From the NCBI GenBank assembly GCA_964532225.1, contig CAZHHM010000001.1, forward strand, positions 22,846-86,845: DNA of 64,000 bases, read 5' to 3'. Position numbers and translations under genes: made by a program. The number at the start of each line of letters is the position of its first letter. Positions within the stretch are counted from its first letter, which is position 1. The stretch is from an uncultured bacterium. Lineage in GTDB: Bacteria; Margulisbacteria; WOR-1; JAKLHX01. Under the pieces are notes generated by a model. It did no database searches, was not told the DNA's origin, and saw only the letters and a program-made list of their open reading frames with translations. Positions 20,656-45,716 of the stretch are shown here, piece after piece.

Positions 20656-21309
20656 CTATTCTGAGAACTTGAACAGATCCCCGGCAACGCCGACATCGAA
20701 ATTGAGCATGGGTTGCTTGATGATGCCCGGGATATTGGAGAAGCCCACATAAGCCGCTACGACGAAACCGATATTGTTCTTGCTGCGCAGAAAAAATGAA
20801 ATGCCGATGTTGTTATAAATGACGTTCTTTGAGAATACCGTGAATTCGTTCATGTCATTGGTATATGCATTAGTTCCCTGGATGAATGAGAACTTACCGT
20901 ATTTGATATTCCATTTTATGAATAACTGAGGGGCGTCGCTCCTTTCGGATAATTCGAAAGGCATATAGGACACTGCGAACATATGATGAGGGCCGACTTC
21001 TTCTCTTAAGTACGCGATCTCGCTCTCGGCTTGGCTTGGGGCTGGAAGGGAAGGGTCTCGATAGTCATATTCTAATTTAGCTATCTTGCCGTGATAAAGA
21101 TCGCCCATTATCCCGTACTCTATCCTAAACCTGCCGGACCTTAATCCTATAGTTGGTCCTACCAGCTCGCGGTCAAAATATGCGTTGCTTGGCAAGTCCC
21201 GTTCGGCTGTCTTGCCGTTCAATGCGGTGACCGTACGTGTATAGATGGCTTCATTATAGTGTTGAAGTTTTATATTTACGTTGAAACCGAGCGTTATCGC
21301 GCTTCCCAT
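20656..21309 (-). CDS. Hypothetical beta-strand-rich protein (last gene of the large minus-strand operon)
   Basis: Alternating hydrophobic pattern and a C-terminal ...NFDVGVAGDLFKFSE. The track start at 21432 would overlap the upstream gene by 120 nt, so ATG 21309 (MGSAITLG, SD GGTGAGG) is used. No signal peptide. Confidence 0.45.
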   Translation of the reverse strand: MGSAITLGFNVNIKLQHYNEAIYTRTVTALNGKTAERDLPSNAYFDRELVGPTIGLRSGRFRIEYGIMGDLYHGKIAKLEYDYRDPSLPAPSQAESEIAYLREEVGPHHMFAVSYMPFELSERSDAPQLFIKWNIKYGKFSFIQGTNAYTNDMNEFTVFSKNVIYNNIGISFFLRSKNNIGFVVAAYVGFSNIPGIIKQPMLNFDVGVAGDLFKFSE

Positions 21310-21311
21310 AT

Positions 21312-24269
21312 TTACCTCACCAGCATCATTTTTTTTGTATCTGTGACGCCGTTGGCGGTTATCCTGAGAAAATACATGCCCGGAGCATGCCCGCTGCCGT
21401 CCCATTGAGCAAAATAGCTGCCTTCGACGCACCTGCCGGAGTAAAGCTGTTTTACCTTCCTGCCCAGAGTGTCATAGACGGAAATATCCAGATCGTTTAC
21501 TGTCCGGGTAGCAGAGAATTTTACCGTGGTCGGGCCTGAGAAAGGGTTCGGGTAGTTCTGCGCGAGAACAAAAGTTGACGGGTTCTGCCGTCCCTGCGCG
21601 TCGATCGCGGTTATCGCGTCCAACGCCGGTTTTGGGGTCCCGTTACTGTTAAAGAGCCCGCGCTTCGCGTTGTAGTTTGCGATGTTGAACTTCCAGGGCT
21701 CATCGAACGCCTCGTCAAAATAGTATTTGTCGTAAGGGAAAGCCTGTCTGGCAAGACGCCTGAATTCTGTAACGAACCTTTTTTGGTATTCAGGAGTAGG
21801 GTAATTATACCTGCTAAAGTCCCCGGTGGACCAAAGTGACAGACTGGTGACCACAACCGGAATGTCCGGGTTGACCTGCATTACCTGCCGCCATTTCTGG
21901 ATGGCGTATTCAGCCGCGCCTTCGGGATCGGATAGCAGAAAATCGTCATAGATTGGGAATTCAAGGAAAGGATCAATCTTTATACCGATAAAATCGATCG
22001 ACTTGAAAAGTTCCGGAAGAACCGTCCTGGGCCATCTCTGCGTGAATATGCTTGCGTTGTCCTCTATGCCTATTGGAACTGTTGAAGAACTGCCGGCCTG
22101 TTTTAAATACTGGATATACGGGGCCGCCAGTTCAGGAGAGTACTGGAGATCGCTTTTTTTGCTCAGAAGGCCAGAACCGATCAAAAAGCCGCTCAGGTTA
22201 AGGGATGCGTTGTTCATCATCGAGACTGCGGCATTGACCGCGTCGGTGTTCTCCTGGTTATTGTCAAGATACTCCATCCAGGCAGTAGGCAGGACGCCGA
22301 AACCTTTCTCCGACGCGAAAGACGGTACTTCATGCGAGATCCCGGTTATCCCGAATGTCCTGATATCGGTGAACACGCCCGAAAGTATGTTAAGCTCGTT
22401 CTTTATCTGCCCTTCGGTCGGCTGTGCGCCCGAAGGTGATTGCCCCGGCTGTGTGAAGATACCGTAGCAGACTCCTATGCTTTCGGGCGGCTCCGTTCCC
22501 AGTATCCTTCTTGCTGACTCCTTAAGCGCCCCGTCTTTGGCGATAAGGCCTCTGCTGGCTTCATTTATCCCGTACACGGTCTTCCACGGCTCGTCGACGG
22601 CCTCGTTAAGATAGTATTCGCCGTCAGGCATCTCTTCTTTCGCAAGCCGCATGAACCTTGTGATAAAAGCGGCCTGTTGAGGACCCCCTGCGGTGTTCCC
22701 AGATTCGCTGCCGTCGGTCGGCCAGGAACCGAGGCTGGTTATTACGACCTTCTTGTCCGGGTATTTCTTCGTCACATCTATCCATGTGTCCATTGCGTAC
22801 CTTGCTGCCGCATAGGGATTGGTATTCTGCCTGTCCTTGAACGGGTCTATCTTTATGCCTATGAAATCTATGTTGTCAAAGATGCCGGGCAGACCGGGCC
22901 TGACCCAGTCGTTAAGGAAGAAGGCCGCATTGTCCTCAATACCAACGGGCAGGTTGGTCGAAAGGTTGGCGTTGACCACATACCCTATGTATCCGGCCGC
23001 GCGCGTCGGGTCGGTCTGAATTTCAGGATGGCCGCTTAAGAGGTCGCTGCCGACAATTATCTTGTCGATCTTGTTCCCCGCAGTTGCCGCCAGGGCGAGG
23101 AGCTGGTTCACTGAGGCCGTGTTCTCCGGCGTCCGGTCAAGGGAGCCGATGTAGGCCGATGCCATGGTATAGAGGTTCCTGGCCGCGGCCAGTCGCGGGA
23201 CCGCTCCCGACATGCCGATAACACCAAAGGTCCTGATATGCTGTGTAAGGCCCTGCAGCGAGGCCAGGTCCTGGTCGATCTGAGATTCCGACGGCTGTGT
23301 TCCCGAAGGGCTTTGTCCGTCCTTGGTGAAGATGCCGAAATTGAGCCCCATATATCCGCGGTCAGGAAGTCCCAGCAAAGGATTCACGGCCGGTTTTGGC
23401 CTGCCGTCAGAGTAGAAAAGGCCGTTGTATTCGGAAGAGTTGAGGACCCTCTTCTTCCACGGCTCATCAAGGACCTCGTTGATATAATACGAACGTCCCG
23501 GAAGATACTGCTCCGCCAGGCGTTTGAACTCTTCGACGAAAAGCCTCTGGCTGTGCCTTCCGGGGATGTTCCTGTCGGAAGTGCCGTCAGAAGGCCAGTT
23601 GGCGATATTCGATATGACCACCTCATTGTCAGGATACAGCCGGATAAGCATTTTCCATTTGTCCATTGTCTTTCTTGCTGCCTGTTTCGGGGTGGAGTCA
23701 GGAAAATCATGGAAAGGGTCGATAGAGACATAAAGGACCCTTCCGTTGGCAATAAGCTGCGGAAGCTTTTTCTTGATGGTATTCTCTTTGCCCCAGACCG
23801 ACCAATGGCATTCGGTGCCTACCGGAAGAGCCGAGGCGGCGTCCGCCTGGTCAAGGAACGCAAAGAAAGGGGCCGCGATGTCCTGGTTGAACTCAAGCTC
23901 TTCTATCCTGCTGTCTATTACTCCGCTTCCCACTATCAATCCGGACGTCTTGTTCAGAGGGTCGTTAGCAATAGCGATAAGGTCGCTTACCGATAGGGTG
24001 TCTTCGGGGCTTCCTGACAGCGAGCCGATCCATGCCGTGATCAGGCAGGAAATGCCTCTCTCGCCAGCAAGTCGGGGGACCAAAGCGGCCGCTCCGTTAG
24101 AACCAAAGGTTCGTATCCTGTCGGTAAGCGTCTGGACCTTTCCAAGATCGGCGCGCACCTGGGATTCGGTAACGGATGAGCTGTTCTCGGGCACCTGTCC
24201 TTCGCGGGTGAAAGGAGAATAGCAGGCTCCCCAGAACGGTTTTATGGCGGCAGTGTTTACGCTTCCCAT
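21312..24269 (-). CDS. Protein with three tandem GH17-like (beta-1,3-glucanase/transglycosylase family) TIM-barrel modules and a T9SS-type C-terminal sorting domain; no N-terminal signal peptide
   Basis: Module starts GACYSPF / GLNFGIF / IGVCYGIF, each with IRTFG, a GIED acid/base-like site and a ..DEPWK..GLF..DG.PKPA tail as in GH17. The C-terminus QNYPNPFSGPTTVKF...VYDTLGRKV...GMYFLRI matches the Por-secretion CTD consensus. In-frame TAA 12 nt upstream of the ATG prevents N-terminal extension. Confidence 0.7.
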   Translation of the reverse strand: MGSVNTAAIKPFWGACYSPFTREGQVPENSSSVTESQVRADLGKVQTLTDRIRTFGSNGAAALVPRLAGERGISCLITAWIGSLSGSPEDTLSVSDLIAIANDPLNKTSGLIVGSGVIDSRIEELEFNQDIAAPFFAFLDQADAASALPVGTECHWSVWGKENTIKKKLPQLIANGRVLYVSIDPFHDFPDSTPKQAARKTMDKWKMLIRLYPDNEVVISNIANWPSDGTSDRNIPGRHSQRLFVEEFKRLAEQYLPGRSYYINEVLDEPWKKRVLNSSEYNGLFYSDGRPKPAVNPLLGLPDRGYMGLNFGIFTKDGQSPSGTQPSESQIDQDLASLQGLTQHIRTFGVIGMSGAVPRLAAARNLYTMASAYIGSLDRTPENTASVNQLLALAATAGNKIDKIIVGSDLLSGHPEIQTDPTRAAGYIGYVVNANLSTNLPVGIEDNAAFFLNDWVRPGLPGIFDNIDFIGIKIDPFKDRQNTNPYAAARYAMDTWIDVTKKYPDKKVVITSLGSWPTDGSESGNTAGGPQQAAFITRFMRLAKEEMPDGEYYLNEAVDEPWKTVYGINEASRGLIAKDGALKESARRILGTEPPESIGVCYGIFTQPGQSPSGAQPTEGQIKNELNILSGVFTDIRTFGITGISHEVPSFASEKGFGVLPTAWMEYLDNNQENTDAVNAAVSMMNNASLNLSGFLIGSGLLSKKSDLQYSPELAAPYIQYLKQAGSSSTVPIGIEDNASIFTQRWPRTVLPELFKSIDFIGIKIDPFLEFPIYDDFLLSDPEGAAEYAIQKWRQVMQVNPDIPVVVTSLSLWSTGDFSRYNYPTPEYQKRFVTEFRRLARQAFPYDKYYFDEAFDEPWKFNIANYNAKRGLFNSNGTPKPALDAITAIDAQGRQNPSTFVLAQNYPNPFSGPTTVKFSATRTVNDLDISVYDTLGRKVKQLYSGRCVEGSYFAQWDGSGHAPGMYFLRITANGVTDTKKMMLVR

Positions 24270-24329
24270 GGTATTCAGATATTAATCGACAGATAAAGGC
24301 AAAGATTTCACGCTTTGTTGTCGAGCCAA

Positions 24330-25160
24330 TTAAAAACGGCTTGCCCAGCCGAGATCAAGGATCTTGAATATAAAAGGGACATATTCTTTTACTATGTTCC
24401 GCGTATTCATTTCCATCTTATCCTTAAATATTTGGGGAACACCATAAGAGTTCCAGATATCGTATGGCCACCATGATGTGACCGATATTCTGCCCATCGC
24501 CTCTTCAGGCGCGGAACCGAAGTCTCTTATCAATGATGCCAAAGAAGCCGAAGGGACATTGATTATCGCTTCATGTTTTCCTCTGCCGGAGCCGTTCATT
24601 ATCAGGTCGGTCATTATTGACAGCTCGAACACCGAAGGATCGTCCAAATATATCCCGAATTTTGAAAGAATGATGCCTTTTTCGAACTCTTCGGCCGATA
24701 ATGTGGTCATTGTTCCCGACACTTTTGGTATCATTCCGTACCTTGCGCCATTCTCATAATTGGCGTCCAATTGAGAAAGCGGGAGCCTCTCTTCAACGGC
24801 CATCCCTTTGGTCGAAACAACTCCGGGGGTCACAGAGAGAAAACCGTGAGAAAGTCCTAACCACTTTTTGTGGAACACTACGGCATCCCTTTTATATGCC
24901 GGAGTTCTGACAATAAAGCTCTCGGCGGGGATCCCGGCTGAGTTCAATCCATTTAGCATCCACCTGGCGGCAACAAAACAATCCCAGTTATCTTTAAACC
25001 GTCCTTCCGTCTCGATCCTTGGGGTCCCTGATAACAAGGAAAGGTGAGTTCCTGACGAGACTATCCTGGAATCGGTCCTTTTTAAGTAGCTGCCATACCC
25101 GTACTCCCTCACAGGGAAGACCTGTTTTGCCTTATGCAGTATTGCTTTTACCGATGACAT
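24330..25160 (-). CDS. Hypothetical protein (276 aa), co-operonic
   Basis: ORF with a 2-nt gap to the GH16 stop; no recognisable motif and no signal peptide. Confidence 0.45.
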   Translation of the reverse strand: MSSVKAILHKAKQVFPVREYGYGSYLKRTDSRIVSSGTHLSLLSGTPRIETEGRFKDNWDCFVAARWMLNGLNSAGIPAESFIVRTPAYKRDAVVFHKKWLGLSHGFLSVTPGVVSTKGMAVEERLPLSQLDANYENGARYGMIPKVSGTMTTLSAEEFEKGIILSKFGIYLDDPSVFELSIMTDLIMNGSGRGKHEAIINVPSASLASLIRDFGSAPEEAMGRISVTSWWPYDIWNSYGVPQIFKDKMEMNTRNIVKEYVPFIFKILDLGWASRF

Positions 25161-25162
25161 GG

Positions 25163-26398
25163 CTATCTTTTCGCCAGGAATCTAATGCTGCTGAGGTCAA
25201 GGTCGGCATTGCACTGGCCGATACCCATGATGTTTATCTTGTTCACGCCGTTGACATCTATGGTCAGGGTCTTTTTCTCTTTCGATGGCTTATAGCTCTT
25301 TTCTATAAGGACATTGTCGGAGCCGTCAAAATCGATGGCCAGTACGGTGAAAGAGCCGTTCCTCCAGCCGCCAGAGAAAGTGCCCGAATAATCTATCTCA
25401 AGCCTGCCGGAGTATTTTCTGCCGAGGTCGACAGTGATGCCGGCGTCGTTCTTATTGCTTATCTTCAGCGACAAGGCTCCGGAGGAGGCATTGACCACTG
25501 CCCCGTTAAAGCCGTTCCATCTGTATTTGCCGCTTAACAGGTCAAGGACAGGTCCTGCAGGCTTTGCGTCATGCGTCTTTACCTCAGGAGCGCTGTTGTC
25601 AGGGACGTTCGTCTTGGCTGTTTGAGGCGATACCGGCTTTTCGGTGCCCTGGGCCTTTTCTTCAGACGCCCCGATAACATTGGCTTGGGGGATAAATTCC
25701 ACATAATCGAACTTCACGGTGCCGCCGCTGCCTTTATAGACCCCGCCAAGCCAGCCCGTTACTTCCTGCGTGCCTGCCCAGTAGTTCATCATCAGCTGTC
25801 CAGGCCTGGTCGGGATGTCCTTGGTCGCCTTGTGCACCGGCTTGCCGTCGACATACCATTCGATATAATCCTTGGTCCACATGAACCCGTAAGAATGGAA
25901 GCCTTCTGTGGGGTCAAAAGGAAGCTCGATGATCTTTTCGTGTCCGCCCTTACCTTTTGTATAGTAGTTGAGCTGCAGCTGCGCCGAAGGCCCGATGAAC
26001 TCGATATCGATCTCATCGTGTGATTCAGTGCCCCATGAGCCGGTGTACGTGAAGAAAGTTCCTCCGACTATCCCGGGCCCTTTTGCCGCGACCATGCTGG
26101 TCTCATAGTAGCCGTACGAGAAATATTTGTCCGAGCGGTATTCGCCCGAAGCGTAAGGGAACCCGTCGCAGCCGGAAGGACAGCCCTTCGTGTCCAGTGT
26201 TATTACCATTTTGCCGCCTGAAAAACTGACGTTGTCAGGCTGAAAGTCGCAGTTAAAGACCCCTTTGTTCGACCAGTCGGCTTTTTGGAAATCCGGCCTG
26301 GCCGAGTCCATCGGGTCGGAGAGAGCGGGCTTGCCTTTTTTGCCTTTGCTAAGATTTTCAGGTCCGTCAGCCGCAGGCATAAATAATGAAATAAACAC
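25163..26398 (-). CDS. GH16 glycoside hydrolase (lichenase/laminarinase-type beta-glucanase) with extra C-terminal ~150-aa domain; no signal peptide
   Basis: Catalytic motif ESHDEIDIEFIG (E-I-D-I-E, Bacillus lichenase-type, no beta-bulge) and WTKDYIEWYVDG. GTG start 6 nt after AGGAGA; alternative ATG at 26380. Confidence 0.82.
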   Translation of the reverse strand: MFISLFMPAADGPENLSKGKKGKPALSDPMDSARPDFQKADWSNKGVFNCDFQPDNVSFSGGKMVITLDTKGCPSGCDGFPYASGEYRSDKYFSYGYYETSMVAAKGPGIVGGTFFTYTGSWGTESHDEIDIEFIGPSAQLQLNYYTKGKGGHEKIIELPFDPTEGFHSYGFMWTKDYIEWYVDGKPVHKATKDIPTRPGQLMMNYWAGTQEVTGWLGGVYKGSGGTVKFDYVEFIPQANVIGASEEKAQGTEKPVSPQTAKTNVPDNSAPEVKTHDAKPAGPVLDLLSGKYRWNGFNGAVVNASSGALSLKISNKNDAGITVDLGRKYSGRLEIDYSGTFSGGWRNGSFTVLAIDFDGSDNVLIEKSYKPSKEKKTLTIDVNGVNKINIMGIGQCNADLDLSSIRFLAKR

Positions 26399-26476
26399 AA
26401 TTAATCTCCTTAAATATATATCGGGAGATATTTCCTGTGATTTCAGCTAAAGTCAGGCCCGGTTTTCAGTAAGTGC

Positions 26477-29400
26477 CTAGTTGATAGGTATACCGAAGTT
26501 CAGGCTGGCTTTAAACCCACCCATTCTTTGATCGTATGGCAGAAAGTCCCAATTGAGTTTCTTGTCGGTGAATGATTCACCATTATTCCACATCCATGAA
26601 GCATCTAAATATACGTTGAATCTGCTGGCGCCATATCCTAATCTTCCGCCTACTTCAGTATAAATATACATGTTTCCGAAGTCGAGCAACCATGGTTTAC
26701 CCATATTGCCGTATTCCGCCCGGTATAGAACAGTATTTTGTGAATCGATCCTTCCTGACAGGAAAGAAGCACTCCCGAATAGTGAAGCGTAAGTCGATCT
26801 TGGCAGCCAAGATGACGGGACTCTCCATTCAGCAGAGAATGTGCCTCCGAAAGCTCCTTGAGCTTTGTCCGGCATCTCATCAGGGTTATCACCCAACAGG
26901 AACATAGATGAACCGAGCCTTTGATAGTTCTTGTAGAACAAGCTCAACGCCAGGTTGAAATTGGAGTCCTCATACTTCAGGGAGCCGGAAATGTCAGTAG
27001 ATATGTCCGTCTGAAGATTCCTTCTTAAGGCCTTTTGTGTGCCGCCGGCAGAGATGACCCTTTCGTCTTCTCCTTTATTAAGGTCCTTGAAATATATTGT
27101 CTTTTTAACTAGCCCCTGTTCGTCCCTTTCATATACAGTACGAATATAATACAATGGAAACGGATCTTCATTACTATTTTTCCCGATCACCGTGACCTTG
27201 GTTTCCCAGCTATTTGCCGTTATCGAGATCTCAGGCGCATTTGTATCTTCTATATACAAATCATCCGTGGCCTCGATCGGGGTCATTTGTGACAGATCTA
27301 TCGATGACAAGAGCGAAGCCTCCGGGAATGTGTCAAGAGGTGTTTCTACGGAGAAAGCATCGCTTGAATAGATGACACCACCGGAAGGGCCTAGTTTAGC
27401 GTAGGTTGCTTTACGCATGGTCTTCAGATTGATCTGCGTTGTTATGTCTTCATTTACTTCCGGTGGATGAGCGATAGGAATATCAACGGTTTTAATATTT
27501 GTTGTTATTGTAGCACCCAGATGCCAAATAAGATTTTCTCCTGTCCCGGTGGATTTCTTTTCGGGAATAAAATAAAACTTATTCCAGAATGTTTGAGGGT
27601 CTTCATTAGGTCTGTCCCATTTTGGAACCGAAACATCCTGAGTGAAGTACACAGGATATTGAGAAGGTGCCTGCCCCAAAATATTCCTCACCCATATTCC
27701 ATCATCCTTAGGTGGTATATAATCTTCCTGGTGAGTTACCACCCAATAGTAATACGGAATGCTGTTGTCGTGTCTGCCGACCGAGACCTTGCCTTTAAGC
27801 GTCCCGGAGAAGTAATCATTAAATCTTTGAGCGCCAGTAAAACCGAGCGACAGATTATAGGGCTGTGAATGTAACAGCGTTTCACCGTACATCGCTTTCG
27901 CTTGGGCGCCGAACTCCGCGTTGACGCTCATGTTCTTGCTGAACCTGTATTGTCCGTTGATCTGCAGCCGTTCCTCATCATTTTTCGGATTGTAGCCGTC
28001 CACTGTTCTTGAATATCCGCCGCCGACAGTGAACTTGCCGAAATCAAAGGTCGAACCAAAACCTTCATGCTTAACGGTTATCGGGTTGCCGGGTATCTGT
28101 ATGTTCATTCTGTCCAATGAATATGAAGGCTGCCAGTTAAGGTCCACGCCGCCGACAGAAAGATCTATATTTCCTGCCAAGTTCAGTTTAAGCGAATTTG
28201 TTGTCGGAGAACCTGCCGTTTTCCAAATATCGGAATTGCTTGCGGTCTGTACGCCGGCAGACAAGTAGGGCAGCGACAGCTTTGCGTCAACAAGGTTCCC
28301 GCTCGGCAGGTAAGAGATCCTTAAAGGCGTTGTCGCCCTTATCTGGCTGTCAAGCCACCAGTTGGCACCGTACTTGCGCAGCGACATATAGTCCTTGTAC
28401 GCTTCGAACGTCCTGCCGCTAGCCAGATTGAAGAGGCCCGAATCATACGCCCTCATGAAGAAGATGTACGGATCGGCCAGTTCCTCGGCCCTGGTCAGCT
28501 CTTTGTATCTAGCGTCAAGCGCGGCAGCCTCTTTTCTCGCGCGCAGGAGGTTGCCTTCCTCGAAGGCTTTCTTCGCCCTGTATTCTATCTCCGCAAGCTT
28601 GCGCAGATTGTCCTTCAGCTTTCCTCTCGTTTCCGGATCGCTGAGAATAGAGGCGTATATGGCCTCGGCCTTTTCGAAATTATCGTCCTCGGCATAATCC
28701 CTTGCCTGGTCGATATCAAGCTCGAAGCTGTCGAACGGTATGTTGTGGCGCCTGAACATATCAAGGAGAAGCTTGACATTGTCCCTTATCTGTATGGCCT
28801 TGCTCTTTTTCCTGTCGATGGACTGTATCCTTGCCGCGGAATTGAGCAGCTTGACCACGGTGATATAGTTGGTGTTGCCTATACCTGCCAGCGAAAGATA
28901 GGAATAGATGTCCTTTCTTTCGGAAGAGAATTCATCCGACAGCTTAAGGTCGGCAGGGGAGGACAGAGAAAAGAACTTCCTGGTGACCCTGCCGCTGCCG
29001 TCAAGATATCCGTTATCCTTAAGGTCAAGAGAAAGTTTTATCGCCGAGGCCGCGGGGTCATTGCTGAACAGCGGCTCGAACGTTTCCGGGCCTACCTTGG
29101 CCCCGACAGAGAAGAGCTTGTCCATTTCTGACTGGGCCTTTTCGATGTCCCCGGAATTGATCAGCGTTACGATGACCTTGGCTTTTATGTCATTGACCTT
29201 CTGATGGTCTTCAGGCATGCAGAGAAGCGCTGACTCGAACAGCCTGCCTGCCTGAGCGTTGCTTGATTCCGGGGAATCAATATCCTCAAGTCCCGCCACG
29301 GTCACGTTGTGGTCGTAAAAGTACGGGGCGAATATCAGGTAGATATCACCGAGAGCCTCATAGGCAAGCGCCCTGGTCGCGTCCTTTATCGAAGCGGCAG

Positions 29401-32400
29401 AGAGCACCCTGTTCAGGTTGGAGATGTATGTTGAAAGAGCGTCAAAATCGGAAGATACCTGCTCTTCCTTTATTATCCTTTTTTGCACATAGGACGTGTA
29501 TGACTTTGCCTGGTCGATAAGAATGCCGGCCCACTGGTCATAGCCGATCTTTGAGAAGATCTCCGCCTGACCGTAGGTGGCGACGGCCTCAAAATTTGTC
29601 GCTACGGTTTCAAAGCCCTCGGTTATCCTGGCCTTTAATGACAAAGCTTCCGCCATATCATAGTTGAGCAGATAACCTGCGCCGGTCACCGGGCCGATGT
29701 CGCTGAGTATGGAGTTGAACTCCTCGAACCTTCTGTCCAGGTTGACCAGCTCCAGGGAGCTGAAGTATCTTGTCCTGCAGTCGTGCAGGCCGGCCCTGGA
29801 GATCACCTCGCCGTAAGCCCTGGGATAAGCCCTGTCGGTAAGGAGCTTTGTTATCCCGCCTTCCGGCAGGGCGTTAAGATTGAACATGTTCTTGGTAATG
29901 GTGTCGAATTCGGTCCTGGCCATGCCGAGATACTGTTTTGACAGCTCGAGCTGCCTGTCAGCGTCCGCCCTTCTGGAAAATATGTTCTTGTCCATCAGCC
30001 AGATGTCAGCCGAGACCTGTGAGGACAGCAGGAAAGAATCGCTCCTCATCAGCTGCATGAACAGGTACTGCTTCTTGTCGTCATTCCTGAGATAGTGGCC
30101 GACAGATCCGAGCTTCGCGTCGAGCAAAGCGCCAAAAGCGTTGTTCGCTTTAAGGGTCTCGTTCAGGACCGTCCTTCTCCTGGTCTCGGAGGTCTCCTGG
30201 GAAGCGGCCACTGATCCCATCTTCAACAGATGCATGCAGATCTCGGCCGTCGCGGTCGCTTCGGCCGGTATGGTGGTTGCCGCCATGTTGCCCGCGACCT
30301 TTGATACCGTAGCCGTAAGGTCATTCTCCCTGCCGCCGAAGAACCTGGTGTAATGGTCGGCAGCGCTGGCATAAAGCTTTGTGTATCCCGGGTCGTTGGC
30401 CTCGGCCGCGCTGTACATGTCCATCTCAAAAGCCTGCCCGATGCCCTTATACGCCTTTATGACGAACAGTCTTTCATTGTCATCCGAGAGCGATGACACA
30501 GAATTCAGCTGGTCAACTATCCTGCCGGGATCGATCCCCGAAGGCATCGCTTCTTTCAGCGGGGAGACGTCGGACACTATGCCGATCTCAGTTGTTATGT
30601 CCGCATCGCGGCCTTTTAGCAGGGACGCGAATATTGACCTGCCCAGACCGTAAAGAGAAGGTTCTTTGCTGCGCGTAAGGGCTTCGGCCAGGCCGAACGC
30701 GGCATATTTCTTAATGGTCCTGTTATGAGGATCGAAGGTCTCGGGAAGCGGGCCGGATATGACCTCGATAAATGACCTGGCCGCAAGGAGTATCTCCCTG
30801 TCGTCGATCTCTTCCCTTGAAACGTAGTAGTTGCCTTTGCCAAGCACGGCCTGGAAATACATGTCGCTGTCGGTCCGCTTAATGTACGGGGTCTTTTCGA
30901 TGAGCTCCACAAAATCGAAAGCCCCCGCAAGCGACTCCACCGGCTGGCCGATGACATTATTAAGCATGGTCCTGTCGCTGTCGGAAAGAGAGACCTTCTC
31001 GCCTAAAAGCTTCATGTATATCTTTCCGGCGAGCTCGGACGTCGCCGAGTTCCTGGAAAGGATGTTGGCCAGTATCAGACATGATTTTTTCTTAAGATAA
31101 AGTTTTGTCTTGTCATTTTCGGGCACATTGTCAAGGAGCCTGACCGCCTCTTTAAGTGTAGAAAGAGCGTCCGCCGCTTTTTGTTTTGAGGCGTCATAGT
31201 CGTTATAGTTGAAGCTTGAAGAGGCCAGCGCCAGCTGTGCTTCGGATACGGACAGCATTGTCTCTGCTATGGACGCTTCAATATAGGACCTGCGCGGCAG
31301 CCGGAGGCTTTCAAACAGGCTTCTTGCTTTTCTCAGGTCTGCGATGGCGCTGTTCAGGTCTTCCGTGTCATATGACGCGAGGTTCTTTTCAAGGACTATC
31401 TGTCCTTTAAGCTTGTAAACTGCCGCGACATCAGGTATGACGAATTTCTTGTCTTTGACCTTCTGCGGGAGCCTGCCGAAATAGCTCTCCGATTCCTCTG
31501 CCAGGGCCAGGTCGTGGTTCCTTAAAATGAGCTTGAGCACAAGGATGTCGTCGCTTGTGCCGAGGCCGGTCCCGAAGAAGCTCTCGCCGAACGGGATGCT
31601 GTTCCCAAGCCTTTGATAGAACTTATCGGTCACTTTTCCGAAGCTGTCGATAAACCCTTCCCTGACCAGTCCGGCCCATACTGCCTTCTTGTCATCCCCG
31701 AGATCGTCAAGGTCTTTCAGCGTGATATTCACCTTTCCCGCAAGCAGACCGCCGAAAAAGGAGAGCGAGCCGTTCTCGAGCGATGCCTTAAGTTCGTACG
31801 GCTTGCACAAGGAGACAAGATTGGCAAGCCATATCCTGGCCCTTGCTTCCACAAGGGTCTTTTTGTTCACTAGAGATTCAGGGGCCGTGATTATGACCTG
31901 AGAAGAATATTCAAGCGACATGCTGATGTGCTTTAACGCGTCCCCAAGTATCTCCGGCTTCCTCTGGCTTTCCGGGGTAGGGTTGGAGTCTATCCATTCC
32001 TTAGATTCGAATATGCCCATGTTCAGATAAACATCCGAAAGGACCTGCATCATCTTTTGGTTTATACGGGCATATTCGGCCGCTATCAGGGAAGTAAGGC
32101 CTTTTGCCTTGTCGATGTTGTCCTTTGAGGCAAGCAGGGCCTTGAGATACACTTCGCTTGGGACGGGAGGCTTCTTGCCCTCGGCTTCAGCCTCTCTCGC
32201 GATCATATAGAGCTGAGCGTTTGACTGCATCATCTCGAACTCAATGCTCATATAGAGGTTCGCGAGCGATTTCTGTGCCTTCTGGTCGGCGGAAAGCGAA
32301 GCAAATATCTCTGACAGTGTCTGGAAAGATATCTGCCTGTTACCCGCCGCGACCGCGAGCCTGGACATCTTCCCGTTCTTGCCGATATCAGAGCCGTACG

Positions 32401-34219
32401 TTTCTGACAGCATCCCGAATAGCCGGTCAAATTCCGGTTCCTCCAGGAAATATCTTGTTCCGCTGGCCTGGATCTTTTTAAGGTACGCGAAAATGTCACG
32501 CACTTCTTTCATTACCTCGTCCTCATCTTGCAGGAAAACATCTCCGATGGTGCCGGTGGGCGTTCGTTTGTACATGTTCCTGAAAGACCTGACGGAGCTT
32601 TCGGAAAGGTCCGCTATCAGACCGCTGTTGTCGATAGCCCTTGAAAGAATAAGACTTGACCATACGTGGTCCCTAAGACCGTCATCACACGGCAGCTCGT
32701 CTTTGCTCGCGGTCCTCAGCAGTGCCCTGAGATGGTCTTTTTTTGTTTCAAATCCTGACAGCACCTTGTTCTTTTCGTCCAGAATCCCCGCGGCTTTAAG
32801 GTACCTGAAAAATGTGTAGCGGTTGTAATAGTCATACAGTATCTCTTTGCCAAGGGATTCCACTTGAGCGTCGGAGAAATATCCGGCAGGCTGATAATAA
32901 GAGAACAGATATGTTTCGGCGTCAACGCAGTGCCCGACCGCCGTGGTCAGAGCGGAGACCTTTCCTTTGGTGTCCAGCGCGTCATTGCCCGAATAGTTGA
33001 AGTTCGCCCTTGCAAGGTCAAGGTAGAGGCTGGCCTTGAGCCAAGGGTTCGTTGTAAGCATCTTGTCATGTTTCTGGTCGAAGAAAGACGTAACTTTTAT
33101 CCCGTCTATGACAGGGGATTCCTTGTCGTTCAATAGTTTGGTGAAGAAAGTCTTGGCTTCCGTTGCCTGGGCCGGCGACGGATCGTCAACATCGAGCAGG
33201 TCAAGCTCTTTCTCAAAGCCCTCTATCCCGATCAATTCCGCCTCCAGGAGAAGGAATGTTTTCGGGAGGTCCATTTTGACCCTCAGATCAGCGAAAAGCG
33301 GCTTGCAATGGGCAACAAAGGCGTTTATCAGCTTCGCGCGCTTGAACGGGTCGTTATGCTCCTTAGAATACAGCGCCGCAAGGTCTCTCTCTTTTTTGTC
33401 TTTTTGGTCCATCGTCAGGCCCCTCAACTCATCGTTGCCGGCGTAATACCTGCCGACCATGGACCGGGACTTTGAGAAAGCCTGCGCCCTGTTGTCGTTG
33501 CCCGACATTTCCGAATAGATCCTGAAAAGCATTGTCTCGGCCAGCAGAAGAGCGTCCTTTGCTTCGGCAAGAAGCTGCTTTATCCTTTTTTTGTTGTCCG
33601 GGTCGGATAGCTGGACATATCTGGCGTATCCCTTGCACGCTCTGGCCAGATGTATATACATGCTTACGGGGAACCAGGGAGAGGCGCTTTGATACTTGGT
33701 ATAAGGCCCGAAATCAGCGGGCTTATTCCTCTCCTTGTTCTTCGGTACTGTCATCTCTATAGTTTCGAAAGCGCAGTCCATTATCCTTACGCCAAAACGC
33801 TCGGCCCTGACAGAGAGCATCCTCTTCACGTTCTCATAAGCCAGTTCGAACATTTTCGGGTCGTCCTCGGCGGCCGTTAGGAGGTCCTGTATCTGTTGGT
33901 TAGGGCCGGACTTTGAAGGGGTCGATACGCCAAGAGGCCTTGCGACCAGATGGTCCTGTAACGCGAACTGTGAAATGATGGCCTGGAAATCAAGCCTTTG
34001 TTCGTACTTCCTCGGGTTAGAAAGGTCGATCCCGTAGGCCGTGCTGACATCCCCTTCATAGAAATCTTTTTCTATCGCGTTGATCTCATTTAGAAGGCTG
34101 TATGCCCGCGCAAAGACACGGCTGCCGTTCTCTGCCGGTTTCGGGTCATTTCCTTTTCCCGGCTTTTCCTGCGGGAAAGCCTGGAAGTCGGCCCCGACCT
34201 TTCTAATAATATTGAACAT
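26477..34219 (-). CDS. Giant hypothetical protein (2580 aa): long alpha-helical N-terminal ~2000 aa plus beta-strand-rich C-terminal ~500 aa; no signal peptide
   Basis: Single uninterrupted ORF. C-terminal alternating-hydrophobic strands (ITVKHEGFGSTFDFGKFTVGGGYSRTV, LQINGQYRFSKNMSVNAEFGAQA). Carries one copy of the shared NGYLDGSGRVTRKF module. Confidence 0.65.
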   Translation of the reverse strand: MFNIIRKVGADFQAFPQEKPGKGNDPKPAENGSRVFARAYSLLNEINAIEKDFYEGDVSTAYGIDLSNPRKYEQRLDFQAIISQFALQDHLVARPLGVSTPSKSGPNQQIQDLLTAAEDDPKMFELAYENVKRMLSVRAERFGVRIMDCAFETIEMTVPKNKERNKPADFGPYTKYQSASPWFPVSMYIHLARACKGYARYVQLSDPDNKKRIKQLLAEAKDALLLAETMLFRIYSEMSGNDNRAQAFSKSRSMVGRYYAGNDELRGLTMDQKDKKERDLAALYSKEHNDPFKRAKLINAFVAHCKPLFADLRVKMDLPKTFLLLEAELIGIEGFEKELDLLDVDDPSPAQATEAKTFFTKLLNDKESPVIDGIKVTSFFDQKHDKMLTTNPWLKASLYLDLARANFNYSGNDALDTKGKVSALTTAVGHCVDAETYLFSYYQPAGYFSDAQVESLGKEILYDYYNRYTFFRYLKAAGILDEKNKVLSGFETKKDHLRALLRTASKDELPCDDGLRDHVWSSLILSRAIDNSGLIADLSESSVRSFRNMYKRTPTGTIGDVFLQDEDEVMKEVRDIFAYLKKIQASGTRYFLEEPEFDRLFGMLSETYGSDIGKNGKMSRLAVAAGNRQISFQTLSEIFASLSADQKAQKSLANLYMSIEFEMMQSNAQLYMIAREAEAEGKKPPVPSEVYLKALLASKDNIDKAKGLTSLIAAEYARINQKMMQVLSDVYLNMGIFESKEWIDSNPTPESQRKPEILGDALKHISMSLEYSSQVIITAPESLVNKKTLVEARARIWLANLVSLCKPYELKASLENGSLSFFGGLLAGKVNITLKDLDDLGDDKKAVWAGLVREGFIDSFGKVTDKFYQRLGNSIPFGESFFGTGLGTSDDILVLKLILRNHDLALAEESESYFGRLPQKVKDKKFVIPDVAAVYKLKGQIVLEKNLASYDTEDLNSAIADLRKARSLFESLRLPRRSYIEASIAETMLSVSEAQLALASSSFNYNDYDASKQKAADALSTLKEAVRLLDNVPENDKTKLYLKKKSCLILANILSRNSATSELAGKIYMKLLGEKVSLSDSDRTMLNNVIGQPVESLAGAFDFVELIEKTPYIKRTDSDMYFQAVLGKGNYYVSREEIDDREILLAARSFIEVISGPLPETFDPHNRTIKKYAAFGLAEALTRSKEPSLYGLGRSIFASLLKGRDADITTEIGIVSDVSPLKEAMPSGIDPGRIVDQLNSVSSLSDDNERLFVIKAYKGIGQAFEMDMYSAAEANDPGYTKLYASAADHYTRFFGGRENDLTATVSKVAGNMAATTIPAEATATAEICMHLLKMGSVAASQETSETRRRTVLNETLKANNAFGALLDAKLGSVGHYLRNDDKKQYLFMQLMRSDSFLLSSQVSADIWLMDKNIFSRRADADRQLELSKQYLGMARTEFDTITKNMFNLNALPEGGITKLLTDRAYPRAYGEVISRAGLHDCRTRYFSSLELVNLDRRFEEFNSILSDIGPVTGAGYLLNYDMAEALSLKARITEGFETVATNFEAVATYGQAEIFSKIGYDQWAGILIDQAKSYTSYVQKRIIKEEQVSSDFDALSTYISNLNRVLSAASIKDATRALAYEALGDIYLIFAPYFYDHNVTVAGLEDIDSPESSNAQAGRLFESALLCMPEDHQKVNDIKAKVIVTLINSGDIEKAQSEMDKLFSVGAKVGPETFEPLFSNDPAASAIKLSLDLKDNGYLDGSGRVTRKFFSLSSPADLKLSDEFSSERKDIYSYLSLAGIGNTNYITVVKLLNSAARIQSIDRKKSKAIQIRDNVKLLLDMFRRHNIPFDSFELDIDQARDYAEDDNFEKAEAIYASILSDPETRGKLKDNLRKLAEIEYRAKKAFEEGNLLRARKEAAALDARYKELTRAEELADPYIFFMRAYDSGLFNLASGRTFEAYKDYMSLRKYGANWWLDSQIRATTPLRISYLPSGNLVDAKLSLPYLSAGVQTASNSDIWKTAGSPTTNSLKLNLAGNIDLSVGGVDLNWQPSYSLDRMNIQIPGNPITVKHEGFGSTFDFGKFTVGGGYSRTVDGYNPKNDEERLQINGQYRFSKNMSVNAEFGAQAKAMYGETLLHSQPYNLSLGFTGAQRFNDYFSGTLKGKVSVGRHDNSIPYYYWVVTHQEDYIPPKDDGIWVRNILGQAPSQYPVYFTQDVSVPKWDRPNEDPQTFWNKFYFIPEKKSTGTGENLIWHLGATITTNIKTVDIPIAHPPEVNEDITTQINLKTMRKATYAKLGPSGGVIYSSDAFSVETPLDTFPEASLLSSIDLSQMTPIEATDDLYIEDTNAPEISITANSWETKVTVIGKNSNEDPFPLYYIRTVYERDEQGLVKKTIYFKDLNKGEDERVISAGGTQKALRRNLQTDISTDISGSLKYEDSNFNLALSLFYKNYQRLGSSMFLLGDNPDEMPDKAQGAFGGTFSAEWRVPSSWLPRSTYASLFGSASFLSGRIDSQNTVLYRAEYGNMGKPWLLDFGNMYIYTEVGGRLGYGASRFNVYLDASWMWNNGESFTDKKLNWDFLPYDQRMGGFKASLNFGIPIN

Positions 34220-34229
34220 ATATCTCTTT

Positions 34230-36899: not shown

Positions 36900-36909
36900 A
36901 GCGCACCTC

Positions 36910-44484: not shown

Positions 44485-44611
44485 TGCCAGCCCCCTCTAT
44501 ATATATATCGATAAGAACCATCCGGAATCCCAGTCCCGGAAACCCCCGTTCCGTGACTTCTTATATATAACGGGTTTAACTATTAAAAACTTGCATAAGA
44601 TTTACAATTCC

Positions 44612-44644
44612 TTAATAGTCGAACCTTAACATCTCTTCGTTCAT
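44612..44644 (-). other. Possible 10-codon upstream ORF (MNEEMLRFDY) with a perfect SD GGAGGGAGG, in the 5' leader of the giant operon
   Basis: Minus-strand reading ggagggaggtATGAACGAAGAGATGTTAAGGTTCGACTATTAA, 128 nt upstream of the 2524-aa gene ATG. Confidence 0.2.
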
Positions 44645-44705
44645 ACCTCCCTCCGATTTCACGGAATATTAGGGTGTCCCGAAGATTTTTCAAGGCAAGC
44701 ACGAA

Positions 44706-45701
44706 CTATCTGTTACGAGGACCCCGTTTCCCCAGGCTTGAGCCTTCCAGCCCGTCAGCTATCACTATGGTCTGGTATGCCATAAAGGTCTTTCCGAAAG
44801 CCACGCAATAGTATGTCCCGGGCTCAGCCATCTTGCCGTTGTCGTATAGGCCGTCCCAGTATACGAACTGCTCTCCCACGGAGCGTGACACCGATTCTCC
44901 TATTGTCCTGACGATATTGCCTTCGGTATTGTTCGTCCTTAGTGCGTTATAGATCGACCGTTTTGCCGAGAGGGCCCAGTTGAACTTGAGGAAGTCCTTG
45001 GTCTCTTTGGTAAGGTCAGAGTATTCCACCAGCCTTGTAAACCCTTCTTTCGTTTCGATATCCGAGGTAGAAGAGCCGGTAAAGAGATCACCGAGCCGGT
45101 CTATCATTTCGGGGCATGAAAGAAGCAGCCTTTCTTTATCAAAAACAACGTTCCTGGCAAAGCTCACGGGGATGTTGATCTCCCTTGCATCATCGATAAG
45201 AGCGTATTTCGGGGTAACGTTCCCGTCCCTGTCGACATACCCGTTGTTCAGCATTGCCTTCCACATTTCTTCAACCTGCCCGGATACTCTTTCTTTCAGA
45301 CATCCGACATCAAGCGTCCATTTGTATATCCTGATGGTGATGGAGTCAGGCTTGATCAAATGGTAGGAGAGGACCTCGATCTCGTTCTTTGCCATTCCGC
45401 CGGGATCATCATCTTCTCCATCCATTTTCCAGCCTTTCGTGGTCCACACCGCCATTACCGGCTTCTTGATCTTAGTGTCCACGATGGAGCTCATCGTCTG
45501 GGACCTGTCGGCCAGCTCATAACCCGCGAGATACGTCTCCATTTCTTTCGCGAGCCTGACGGAGTATTTGGCACAGGCGGCTACCGCGGAGTCCCTTTCC
45601 TTTACCAGGTCCAGAACGCCGTTCCTGTTGCCGAAATGGTCTCCGTTCGTGAGGAACGTCCGGAATTCTTTGGGGGCCTCGGATATTTTTAATGATGACA
45701 T
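44706..45701 (-). CDS. Hypothetical protein (331 aa) with conserved N-terminal ISEAPK/GN-NG module and C-terminal FlgD-Ig/T9SS-CTD-like beta-sandwich
   Basis: N-terminus MSSLKISEAPKEF...FGNRNGVLD is paralogous to the 924-aa protein N-terminus. C-terminus VYWDGLYDNGKMAEPGTYYCVAF. Contains the MWKAMLNNGYVDRDGNVTPKY module. Confidence 0.55.
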   Translation of the reverse strand: MSSLKISEAPKEFRTFLTNGDHFGNRNGVLDLVKERDSAVAACAKYSVRLAKEMETYLAGYELADRSQTMSSIVDTKIKKPVMAVWTTKGWKMDGEDDDPGGMAKNEIEVLSYHLIKPDSITIRIYKWTLDVGCLKERVSGQVEEMWKAMLNNGYVDRDGNVTPKYALIDDAREINIPVSFARNVVFDKERLLLSCPEMIDRLGDLFTGSSTSDIETKEGFTRLVEYSDLTKETKDFLKFNWALSAKRSIYNALRTNNTEGNIVRTIGESVSRSVGEQFVYWDGLYDNGKMAEPGTYYCVAFGKTFMAYQTIVIADGLEGSSLGKRGPRNR

Positions 45702-45716
45702 GATATTCTCCTTTGC

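What the first reader, a model, noticed from the sequence alone, without database searches (positions are those of the whole stretch)
21312..24269. Triple GH17-like protein with a T9SS-type C-terminal domain but no signal peptide, and apparently missing the catalytic nucleophile
Three consecutive modules carry GH17 hallmarks ([GV]CY[GS], IRTFG, GIED, ..NE..DEPWK, GLF..DG.PKP). At the position of the GH17 nucleophile motif (vsEtGWPS) the modules read SNIANWPSDG, TSLGSWPTDG and SLSLWSTGD, so the Glu is replaced by Ile/Leu in all three. This suggests non-hydrolytic glucan-binding or transglycosylase-like roles.

The C-terminus is a strong match to the Por-secretion CTD (QNYPNPFS...YDTLGRKV...GMYFLRI). 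The N-terminus MGSVNTAAIKPFWGACYSPF has no signal peptide, and an in-frame TAA 12 nt upstream excludes N-terminal extension. This is contradictory for a T9SS cargo.
Basis: partly seen in the sequence, partly recalled or inferred. Interest (0 to 1): 0.6.

Follow-up and report, generated by a model that had tools for sequence, protein, structure and literature searches.

The report
Triple dead GH17-like protein, sorting tail
A 985-residue protein from a Saganbacteria-like (Margulisbacteria) genome carries three copies of a beta-1,3-glucanase-type barrel that have all lost both catalytic glutamates, plus a type-IX-style C-terminal sorting domain but no export signal peptide, so it most likely binds glucan rather than cutting it and does not fit the classic type IX cargo model.

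Summary
ORF 21312-24269 (minus strand, 985 aa) has three 291-305-aa modules, 35-41% identical to one another, that are homologous to GH17. A profile of them matches the RmBgt17A GH17 glucanosyltransferase (E=3e-12), and the module 3 model (pLDDT 90.5) has GH17 structures as its best fold matches.

The nucleophile Glu is absent (N221/S512/S809). Residues of the -1/+1 subsites are lost; those of the -2/-3 sugar platform are kept.

The C-terminal domain passes the Por_Secre_tail and TIGR04183 thresholds. There is no signal peptide, and an in-frame TAA ends 12 nt upstream of the ATG.

The genome is Saganbacteria/Margulisbacteria-like, outside the phyla known to have T9SS. All ten genes of the surrounding 29-kb cluster lack signal peptides, including a lichenase-type GH16, a GH26-like protein and a LysM protein. 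So does a tail-bearing protein in the closest relative.

Only one comparable protein (P0014) turned up, from a search of 1.84 billion representative sequences.

Best reading: a non-catalytic, multivalent beta-glucan-binding pseudoenzyme, not a transglycosylase. How or whether it is exported is unresolved.

The parts
21312..24269 (-). Whole ORF, 985 aa plus stop: three GH17-like modules followed by a C-terminal sorting-type domain.
23355..24269 (-). Module 1 (aa 1-305). The first barrel strand starts at about residue 13 (GACYSPF). The acid/base position is G116 (23922-23924) and the nucleophile position is N221 (23607-23609).
22482..23354 (-). Module 2 (aa 306-596). The acid/base position is D409 (23043-23045) and the nucleophile position is S512 (22734-22736).
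21597..22481 (-). Module 3 (aa 597-891). The acid/base position is G700 (22170-22172) and the nucleophile position is S809 (21843-21845). Modelled as a (beta/alpha)8 barrel with pLDDT 90.5.
21315..21560 (-). C-terminal Por_Secre_tail / TIGR04183 (type A) beta-sandwich domain, aa 904-985 (QNYPNPFS...GMYFLRI...KKMMLVR).
24282..24284 (-). In-frame TAA ending 12 nt upstream of the ATG; it rules out an N-terminal extension. No Shine-Dalgarno-like motif lies upstream.
20656..21309 (-). 217-aa ORF that starts 2 nt after the target's stop codon, with GGTGAGG inside the target's 3' end. A likely co-translated partner. No family, PDB or usable structure-model evidence.
24330..25160 (-). 276-aa upstream ORF of unknown function with no signal peptide. 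It is in the same reading frame as the target, separated by two TAA codons.
25163..26398 (-). GH16 of the lichenase (1,3-1,4-beta-glucanase) type, with the EIDIE catalytic motif. AAGGAG lies upstream of its GTG start. No signal peptide.
34230..36899 (-). 889-aa GH26-like protein. It is the counterpart of the GH26-like gene next to P0014 in locus L084.
20656..49477 (-). Co-directional array of ten genes (924, 328 LysM, 331, 2524, 889, 2580, 411, 276, 985 and 217 aa). None has a signal peptide. G+C content matches the flanks. Absent from the syntenic SecD-side neighbourhood of five related contigs.

Best explanation
The gene encodes a non-catalytic, GH17-derived pseudoenzyme: three tandem (beta/alpha)8 modules that keep the GH17 cleft scaffold but have lost the catalytic centre.

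Shown: GH17 homology and fold, loss of both catalytic glutamates in all three modules, and the same losses in the only comparable protein found.

Inferred: each module still holds a beta-1,3 or mixed-linkage glucan chain on its retained glycone-side platform. The platform residues are the equivalents of RmBgt17A Phe38, Trp65 and Arg238 and the Trp of DEPWK, plus Glu242 in two of the three modules. Three such modules would make a multivalent glucan-binding or tethering protein. It would work together with the adjacent active lichenase-type GH16 and the GH26-like protein of the same operon-like cluster.

The C-terminal domain is a bona fide Por_Secre_tail-type beta-sandwich. Because the protein has no Sec signal and sits in a Saganbacteria-like genome, this domain most likely does not act as a classic Sec-plus-T9SS signal. 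It may serve as an Ig-like attachment or assembly module, or as the handle for a route not yet described. Where the protein ends up (cytoplasm or surface) is not established.
For: GH17 homology and fold.
- The three-module profile matches RmBgt17A at E=3e-12.
- The AF2 model of module 3 has pLDDT 90.5 and pTM 0.89.
- Its best Foldseek hits are the GH17 structures 4WTR/4WTP (TM 0.75/0.83), 6FCG and 8AKP.

Loss of the catalytic centre.
Only this protein, P0014, P0041 and P0108 lack both glutamates.
- P0014 is the best non-self hit and also carries a sorting tail. It shows the same substitutions: GSG and IESG at the acid/base site, SSIGW and SHLYGW at the nucleophile site, and IDPF/IDAY in place of HxHPYW.

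Selective retention, mapped with the residue numbering of PMC11005184.
- Kept: Phe38, Trp65, Ser98, Glu158, Arg/Lys238.
- Lost: Glu99, Tyr102, Asn152, Phe154, Trp157, Glu189.

Evidence of long-term constraint.
- The modules have diverged to 35-41% identity yet keep 68 invariant columns inside an intact 2958-nt ORF.

Context.
- An active lichenase-type GH16 lies two genes upstream (3WVJ, E=2.6e-55).
- The pairing with a GH26-like gene is repeated next to P0014 in a genome of 35% G+C.

Tail and signal peptide.
-.

Lineage.
- SecD is 72-78% identical to Saganbacteria/Margulisiibacteriota proteins, and the SecD-SecF-FtsK-PBP-FecCD-ABC gene order is shared.
Against: - No binding data exist.
- The retained-platform argument rests on sequence alignment to one fungal structure at about 20% identity. 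I could not obtain model coordinates.
- Several cleft aromatic residues are lost (Tyr102, Trp157, and the Trp of WGL), which could abolish glycan binding as well.
- New family-specific invariant acidic residues could mean a relocated active site: a Glu on beta-5 (E153/E445/E736) and the Asp of IDPF on beta-6 (D184/D475/D766).
- If the protein stays in the cytoplasm, a role in binding extracellular glucan makes little sense.
- With only two family members, conservation statistics are thin.
Confidence: 0.55

Rival explanations
1. Scaffold or structural component. The GH17-like barrels have been recruited for protein-protein contacts within a cluster-encoded envelope or surface assembly (giant helical proteins, a LysM protein, proteins with sorting-tail-like ends), and sugar binding plays no part.
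For: The gene sits in a ten-gene array dominated by 2524-aa and 2580-aa proteins without family matches, a LysM protein, and two paralogs that end in degenerate FlgD_ig/tail-like motifs. The P0014 locus also contains a giant helical protein and beta-rich proteins. Many residues of the -1/+1 subsites are lost.
Against: The glycone-platform residues and the DEPWK motif are selectively kept. Active GH16 and GH26-like neighbours point to glycan chemistry. The giant proteins of the two loci are not detectably homologous.
Confidence: 0.18
2. Neo-functionalised enzyme. The catalytic residues have migrated, for example to the invariant Glu on beta-5 and the Asp of IDPF on beta-6, and the modules catalyse a different glycan reaction.
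For: E153/E445/E736 and D184/D475/D766 are invariant in all five pseudo-modules, including both modules of P0014. They replace Ala and His in active GH17 relatives. Migration of catalytic residues in apparent pseudoenzymes is documented (PMC10211241, abstract).
Against: From general knowledge, clan GH-A enzymes place the acid/base on beta-4 and the nucleophile on beta-7; I know of no exception. Module 2 of P0014 has IDAY. Trp157, reported to stabilise the transition state, is lost. No geometry could be checked.
Confidence: 0.12
3. Decaying relic. A formerly secreted GH17-plus-tail enzyme, acquired from an FCB-type bacterium, lost its signal peptide and active site and is now functionless.
For: The architecture signal peptide + GH17 + sorting tail is seen among the active relatives, for example P0018, P0027 and P0035. 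There is no Shine-Dalgarno motif upstream of the target. The cluster is absent from related Saganbacteria contigs.
Against: The 985-codon ORF is intact, and the three modules have diverged to 35-41% identity with 68 invariant positions. The same substitutions occur in P0014 from a very different genome. G+C and GC3 match the host genome. The downstream gene is tightly coupled.
Confidence: 0.08
4. Ordinary T9SS cargo whose signal peptide is hidden by a sequencing, assembly or start-site error.
For: The tail is canonical.
Against: An in-frame stop ends 12 nt upstream, and an independent assembly is identical across the start region. Barrel strand 1 begins at about residue 13, leaving no room for a signal peptide. 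The intergenic gap is only 60 nt, and the upstream ORF also lacks a signal peptide. No T9SS component was found among the window's proteins. The lineage lies outside Bacteroidota/FCB (PMC5445135, PMC12398890).
Confidence: 0.03

Closest known systems
GH17 beta-1,3-glucanosyltransferase RmBgt17A (PDB 4WTP/4WTR/4WTS) and bacterial GH17 enzymes such as MlGH17B and the Formosa laminarinase 6FCG
   Same: Same (beta/alpha)8 fold; these are the best sequence and structure matches. Shared motifs: RT[FY]G, GxW, VGS, DEPWK, PKP.
   Different: Both catalytic glutamates are lost, as are the residues equivalent to Tyr102, Asn152, Phe154 and Trp157. Pfam PF00332 does not match. Three modules occur in tandem. 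About 20% identity to the solved structures.
P0014 (778 aa, GCA_964633925.1 contig CAZWKB010000040.1)
   Same: The only comparable protein found: tandem GH17-like modules lacking both glutamates, with IDPF-type substitutions, a C-terminal Por_Secre_tail-like domain and a GH26-like neighbour.
   Different: Two modules rather than three. About 24-30% identity. Genome of 35% G+C. Its N-terminus is interrupted by a scaffold gap, so whether it has a signal peptide is unknown.
Non-catalytic glycoside-hydrolase-derived glucan binders and pseudoenzyme partners: insect GH16-like beta-1,3-glucan recognition proteins and GH18 chi-lectins (from general knowledge), the barley GH81-type beta-glucan-binding protein (bioRxiv 10.1101/2023.04.12.536646), and the pseudo-beta-amylase BAM9 that activates AMY3 (PMC12046210)
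   Same: A glycosidase fold is kept and the catalytic carboxylates are lost, with a proposed role in binding or assisting a partner enzyme.
   Different: Different GH families and organisms. None is a bacterial GH17 derivative, none is a triple tandem, and none carries a sorting-type tail.
[quoted passage not shown]
   Same: A C-terminal beta-sandwich that matches TIGR04183/PF18962 above threshold, including the PNPF, D..G..V and G.Y motifs and the basic C-terminal end.
   Different: No Sec signal peptide. Saganbacteria-like host. No T9SS gene seen in the window.

Membership tests
Glycoside hydrolase family 17 (CAZy GH17 / Pfam PF00332) | (beta/alpha)8 barrel whose nearest structural relatives are GH17 enzymes | tested here: met
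   AF2 model of module 3 has pLDDT 90.5. Top Foldseek hits are 4WTR/4WTP, 6FCG and 8AKP.
Glycoside hydrolase family 17 (CAZy GH17 / Pfam PF00332) | Match to the curated family model above its gathering score | tested here: not met
   PF00332 is absent for the whole protein (listing to E=1) and for single modules (listing to E=10). Homology shows only with a custom three-module profile: E=3e-12 to 4WTP and 2081 hits.
Glycoside hydrolase family 17 (CAZy GH17 / Pfam PF00332) | Acid/base Glu after strand beta-4 (GNE/GSE) | tested here: not met
   G116, D409 and G700. 146 of the 159 aligned reference domain matches have Glu at this column.
Glycoside hydrolase family 17 (CAZy GH17 / Pfam PF00332) | Nucleophile Glu at the C-terminal end of strand beta-7 (ETGWP) | tested here: not met
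   N221, S512 and S809. No acidic residue occurs in the eight residues before the conserved Trp.
Glycoside hydrolase family 17 (CAZy GH17 / Pfam PF00332) | Hydrolysis or transfer of beta-1,3-glucan | not testable with these tools
   Needs an enzyme assay.
T9SS type A cargo | C-terminal sorting domain (TIGR04183 / PF18962) at the extreme C-terminus | tested here: met
   39.2 bits (cut-off 23) for TIGR04183; 38.2 bits (whole protein) and 44.0 bits (isolated tail) for PF18962 (cut-off 27); aa 906-982 of 985.
T9SS type A cargo | N-terminal Sec signal peptide for entry into the periplasm | tested here: not met
   N-terminal sequence is MGSVNTAAIKPFWGACYSPF. Highest hydrophobic-window score is 0.84, against 2.1-3.6 for controls. 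An in-frame stop lies upstream. No SignalP run was possible.
T9SS type A cargo | T9SS machinery (SprA/Sov, PorK/L/M/N, PorU/V) in the same genome | not testable with these tools
   Only 64 kb of the genome was available, and no T9SS family was found among the proteins scanned. The genome was not recovered in the species-representative scan. The lineage is Saganbacteria-like.
Pseudoenzyme / non-catalytic glycan-binding derivative of a glycosidase | Enzyme fold retained with the catalytic residues lost, under continued constraint | tested here: met
   The same losses occur in P0014.
Pseudoenzyme / non-catalytic glycan-binding derivative of a glycosidase | Demonstrated ligand binding | not testable with these tools
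   Only inferred, from retention of the Phe38, Trp65, Arg238 and DEPW platform equivalents.
Bacteroidota-type polysaccharide utilisation locus | SusC/SusD pair next to the glycan-active genes | tested here: not met
   No SusC or SusD family hit was found in any cluster protein scanned.

The most novel reading that the evidence does not exclude
In Saganbacteria-type bacteria, Por_Secre_tail-type C-terminal domains sit on proteins that never carry Sec signal peptides. Two of two examples seen here follow this rule, and two further proteins of the same cluster have degenerate tail-like ends. That would mean the domain marks cargo for an undescribed, Sec-independent export or surface-assembly route encoded by, or serving, the 29-kb cluster. 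In that system the triple dead-GH17 protein would be the glucan-grasping surface component.
Probability: 0.15. Interest if true: 0.8.

Novelty: new variant of a known kind. Interest (0 to 1): 0.5.

Why it matters
I found no report of a bacterial GH17-derived pseudoenzyme in the papers searched. A tandem triple version would add a new type of beta-glucan-binding module alongside the classical carbohydrate-binding modules, and its partnership with a lichenase can be tested directly.

The second point is separate. A canonical sorting tail on a protein with no signal peptide, in a sister lineage of the Cyanobacteria, inside a cluster where no gene has a signal peptide, challenges a routine annotation rule: that a TIGR04183 match means T9SS cargo. 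It may also point to a different use of this domain.

Tried and rejected
- Pfam and NCBIfam scans of the whole protein and of single modules gave no GH17 family hit.
- The word-indexed homolog search with the full protein returned itself, one distant GH17 (P0002) and two matches confined to the sorting tail. The same search with P0014 returned only P0014.
- The exact-sequence look-up of the target's contig found nothing on record.
- The species-representative genome scan did not recover the source genome; the best match was 27-30% identical.
- Two metagenome scans, one with the module profile and one with the 2580-aa neighbour, found no relatives.
- A paper search for the run accessions found nothing. 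No paper links Margulisbacteria with type IX secretion.
- A single-sequence AF2 model of the 217-aa downstream protein was unusable (pLDDT 30.7).
- PDB sequence searches with the 276-aa and 217-aa neighbours were empty.
- Rejected, N-terminal extension or frameshift rescue: the upstream ORF is in the same frame but is separated by two TAA codons, and it has no signal peptide either.
- Rejected, recent horizontal transfer: G+C and GC3 match the flanks.
- Rejected, recent module duplication: DNA similarity survives only at the conserved motifs.
- Rejected, a downstream start at the GTG of residue 26: it would delete barrel strand 1.
Full report
**1. What is at the coordinates**

The window holds a minus-strand ORF at 21312-24269 that encodes 985 aa. 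On the coding strand the start region reads GAT TAA TAT CTG AAT ACC ATG GGA AGC. An in-frame TAA (24282-24284) therefore ends 12 nt before the ATG, and the N-terminus cannot be extended.

Three contigs assembled independently by Logan from runs SRR10083294 and SRR10083292 cover the start region and the rest of the gene. They are 99.99-100% identical to the window, so the start is not an artefact of one assembler.

**2. The three modules**

Splitting the protein at aa 305/306 and 596/597 gives three modules that align end to end. They are 35-41% identical to one another, with 68 invariant columns. At the DNA level, similarity survives only at the most conserved motifs, spaced 873 and 891 nt apart. 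The triplication is therefore old.

**3. GH17 relationship**

Pfam's GH17 model (PF00332) matches neither the whole protein nor any single module (listings to E=1 and E=10). A profile built from the three modules is much more sensitive:

- It matches the solved GH17 beta-1,3-glucanosyltransferase of Rhizomucor miehei (4WTP/4WTR) at E=3e-12.
- It finds 2081 proteins at E<=1e-3 among 1.84 billion representatives.

An AlphaFold2 model of module 3, built with a 23-row alignment, is confident (pLDDT 90.5, pTM 0.89) and is a (beta/alpha)8 barrel. Its best Foldseek matches in the PDB are GH17 structures: 4WTR/4WTP (TM 0.75/0.83), the Formosa laminarinase 6FCG, and 8AKP.

**4. Catalytic residues**

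- Acid/base position: 146 of the 159 aligned domain matches have Glu here (GNE or GSE). The three modules have G116, D409 and G700.
- Nucleophile position: the motif (G/S)E(T/F)GWP is replaced by SNIANWP, TSLGSWP and TSLSLWS. The aligned residues are N221, S512 and S809, and no acidic residue occurs anywhere in these stretches.

I then mapped the substrate-contact residues using the numbering in PMC11005184. The offset between chain numbering and paper numbering is 34, checked on Trp65, Ser98, Tyr102, Asn152, Trp157, Arg238 and Glu242.

| RmBgt17A residue | Region | State in modules 1/2/3 |
|---|---|---|
| Phe38 | glycone platform | kept (the F of RTF) |
| Trp65 | glycone platform | kept (W/Y/W) |
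| Ser98 | next to acid/base | kept |
| Arg238 | glycone side | kept as the Lys of DEPWK; the Trp of DEPWK is also kept |
| Glu242 | glycone side | E/E/N (kept in modules 1 and 2) |
| Glu158 | +2 subsite | kept as D/D/E |
| Glu99 | acid/base | lost (G/D/G) |
| Tyr102 | +1 platform | lost |
| Asn152 | aglycone side | lost (S/K/K) |
| Phe154 | aglycone side | replaced by Asp (IDPF) |
| Trp157 | -1/+1, transition state | lost (H/K/L) |
| Glu189 | nucleophile | lost (N/S/S) |

This selective pattern is what a domain that still holds a glucan chain but cannot cut or transfer it would show. It is an inference from alignment, because I could not obtain model coordinates.

GH17 transglycosylases use the same two glutamates.

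**5. How rare this is**

The best non-self hit scores 174 bits, against about 510 bits per module for the self match. The second-best non-self hit, P0014 (778 aa), has these features:

- two GH17-like modules with the same losses (IGSG and IESG; SSIGW and SHLYGW);
- the same His-to-Asp change (IDPF/IDAY);
- a canonical C-terminal tail.

Word-indexed searches of 5.8 billion clusters with either protein found no further relatives of this kind. Two metagenome scans found none.

Two other representatives, P0041 and P0108, also lack both glutamates but otherwise look like ordinary GH17 proteins. Loss of the catalytic pair therefore recurs sporadically.

**6. The tail**

Residues 906-982 match Por_Secre_tail at 38.2 bits on the whole protein and 44.0 bits on the isolated tail (cut-off 27). 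They match TIGR04183 at 39.2 bits (cut-off 23). The QNYPNPF, YDTLGRKV and GMYFLRI...KKMMLVR motifs are all present. By sequence it is a type A sorting domain.

**7. No signal peptide, and not only here**

The N-terminus runs straight into barrel strand 1. Its highest hydrophobic-window score is 0.84. Seven controls with clear signal peptides score 2.1-3.6; they include a periplasmic binding protein and a FecCD-family protein from this window and several active GH17 proteins.

The same holds for all ten co-directional genes from 49477 down to 20656, which score -0.17 to 1.89:

- a 924-aa protein and a 331-aa protein, which are paralogs with degenerate FlgD_ig/tail-like ends;
- a 328-aa LysM protein;
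- a 2524-aa protein;
- an 889-aa GH26-like protein;
- a 2580-aa protein with a weak porin-like match;
- a GH16 with the EIDIE motif, closest to lichenases (3WVJ, E=2.6e-55);
- a 276-aa protein;
- the target;
- a 217-aa protein.

In the P0014 locus most neighbouring genes also lack signal peptides. P0014's own N-terminus is cut by a run of N.

**8. Whose genome this is**

SecD from the window is 72-78% identical to proteins named Candidatus Saganbacteria or Margulisiibacteriota. The gene order SecD-SecF-FtsK-binding protein-FecCD-ABC is shared with those contigs.

Five related contigs lack the cluster in the neighbourhood upstream of SecD. Its G+C (0.508, against 0.519 and 0.528 in the flanks) and its GC3 are native-like. 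It therefore looks like an accessory island that has been resident for a long time.

In the closest relative (locus L087, SecD 78% identical), the region next to SecD encodes a 794-aa protein with DUF4116 repeats and a canonical tail (LSQNYPNPF...GIYICTMEL...KMIVQQ). It has no signal peptide, and only 7 codons of open frame lie upstream of its start.

T9SS is described only for Bacteroidota and the FCB group (PMC5445135, PMC12398890). No paper in the library links it to Margulisbacteria. No T9SS family appeared among the window's proteins. The rest of the genome could not be examined.

**9. Interpretation**

The best-supported reading is a non-catalytic, multivalent glucan-binding pseudoenzyme that works with the neighbouring lichenase-type GH16 and the GH26-like protein. 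The tail most likely has a role other than classic Sec-plus-T9SS sorting (confidence about 0.55).

The rivals are:

- a purely structural or scaffold role (0.18);
- an enzyme with a relocated active site, using the family-specific invariant Glu on beta-5 and the Asp of IDPF (0.12);
- a functionless relic (0.08);
- a hidden signal peptide (0.03).

**10. Verdict**

This is a new variant of a known kind: a glycosidase-derived pseudoenzyme carrying a sorting-type tail. It is very rare and sits in an unexplained context. I score interest at 0.5.

The open question with the most upside is whether tail-bearing proteins in this lineage systematically lack signal peptides.

Noticed in passing
window 20656-49477 (minus strand): An array of ten co-directional genes with gaps of 2-221 nt or a 1-nt overlap. 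Most have no family match and none has a signal peptide, although the set includes LysM, GH16, GH26-like and porin-like features that normally belong outside the cytoplasm. G+C matches the flanks. The cluster is absent from the syntenic SecD-side neighbourhood of related Saganbacteria contigs.
   Followed up: partly
window 44706-45701 and 46703-49477 (minus strand): The 331-aa and 924-aa proteins are paralogs (N-termini 38% identical, C-termini 26%). Both start M(G/S)S.(K/N)ISEAPK and end in a degenerate FlgD_ig/sorting-tail-like motif (W.DG...G..v.PG.Y).
   Followed up: partly
L087 6373-8757 (minus strand): In the closest relative (SecD 78% identical), a 794-aa protein with DUF4116 repeats and a canonical Por_Secre_tail domain lies near SecD. 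It has no signal peptide and only 7 codons of open frame upstream of its start.
   Followed up: partly
window 25163-26398 (minus strand): The GH16 neighbour is of the lichenase (1,3-1,4-beta-glucanase) type (3WVJ, E=2.6e-55), with an extra C-terminal region of about 170 aa. It has a good Shine-Dalgarno motif before its GTG start and no signal peptide.
   Followed up: partly
window 26477-34219 and 36910-44484 (minus strand): Two giant proteins (2580 and 2524 aa) with no family match apart from a weak Porin_4 hit at aa 2047-2104 of the first. They are not detectably similar to each other or to the 1882-aa protein in the P0014 locus.
   Followed up: partly
window 24270-25160 (minus strand): The 276-aa upstream ORF is in the same reading frame as the target, separated only by two TAA codons and 60 nt. 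This is probably coincidence (a one-in-three chance).
   Followed up: partly
window 20656-21309 (minus strand): The 217-aa ORF starts 2 nt after the target's stop codon and, like the target, begins MGS (ATGGGAAGCG is shared). It looks beta-rich, but nothing matched and the single-sequence AF2 model was unusable.
   Followed up: partly
L084 2475-2630, around 6380 and around 2480: The contig that carries P0014 contains short runs of N (scaffold gaps). One lies just upstream of the called start, so the true N-terminus and first module of P0014 are incomplete.
   Followed up: yes
P0041 and P0108: Two otherwise ordinary single-domain GH17 representatives also lack both glutamates (GDD + SNTGW; GSD + GAAGW). 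These look like independent losses of the catalytic pair.
   Followed up: no
window 18673-20655 (plus strand): A 660-aa fusion of a glucosamine-6-phosphate isomerase/6-phosphogluconolactonase-type domain with a PIG-L-type de-N-acetylase domain lies immediately next to the cluster, on the convergent strand.
   Followed up: no
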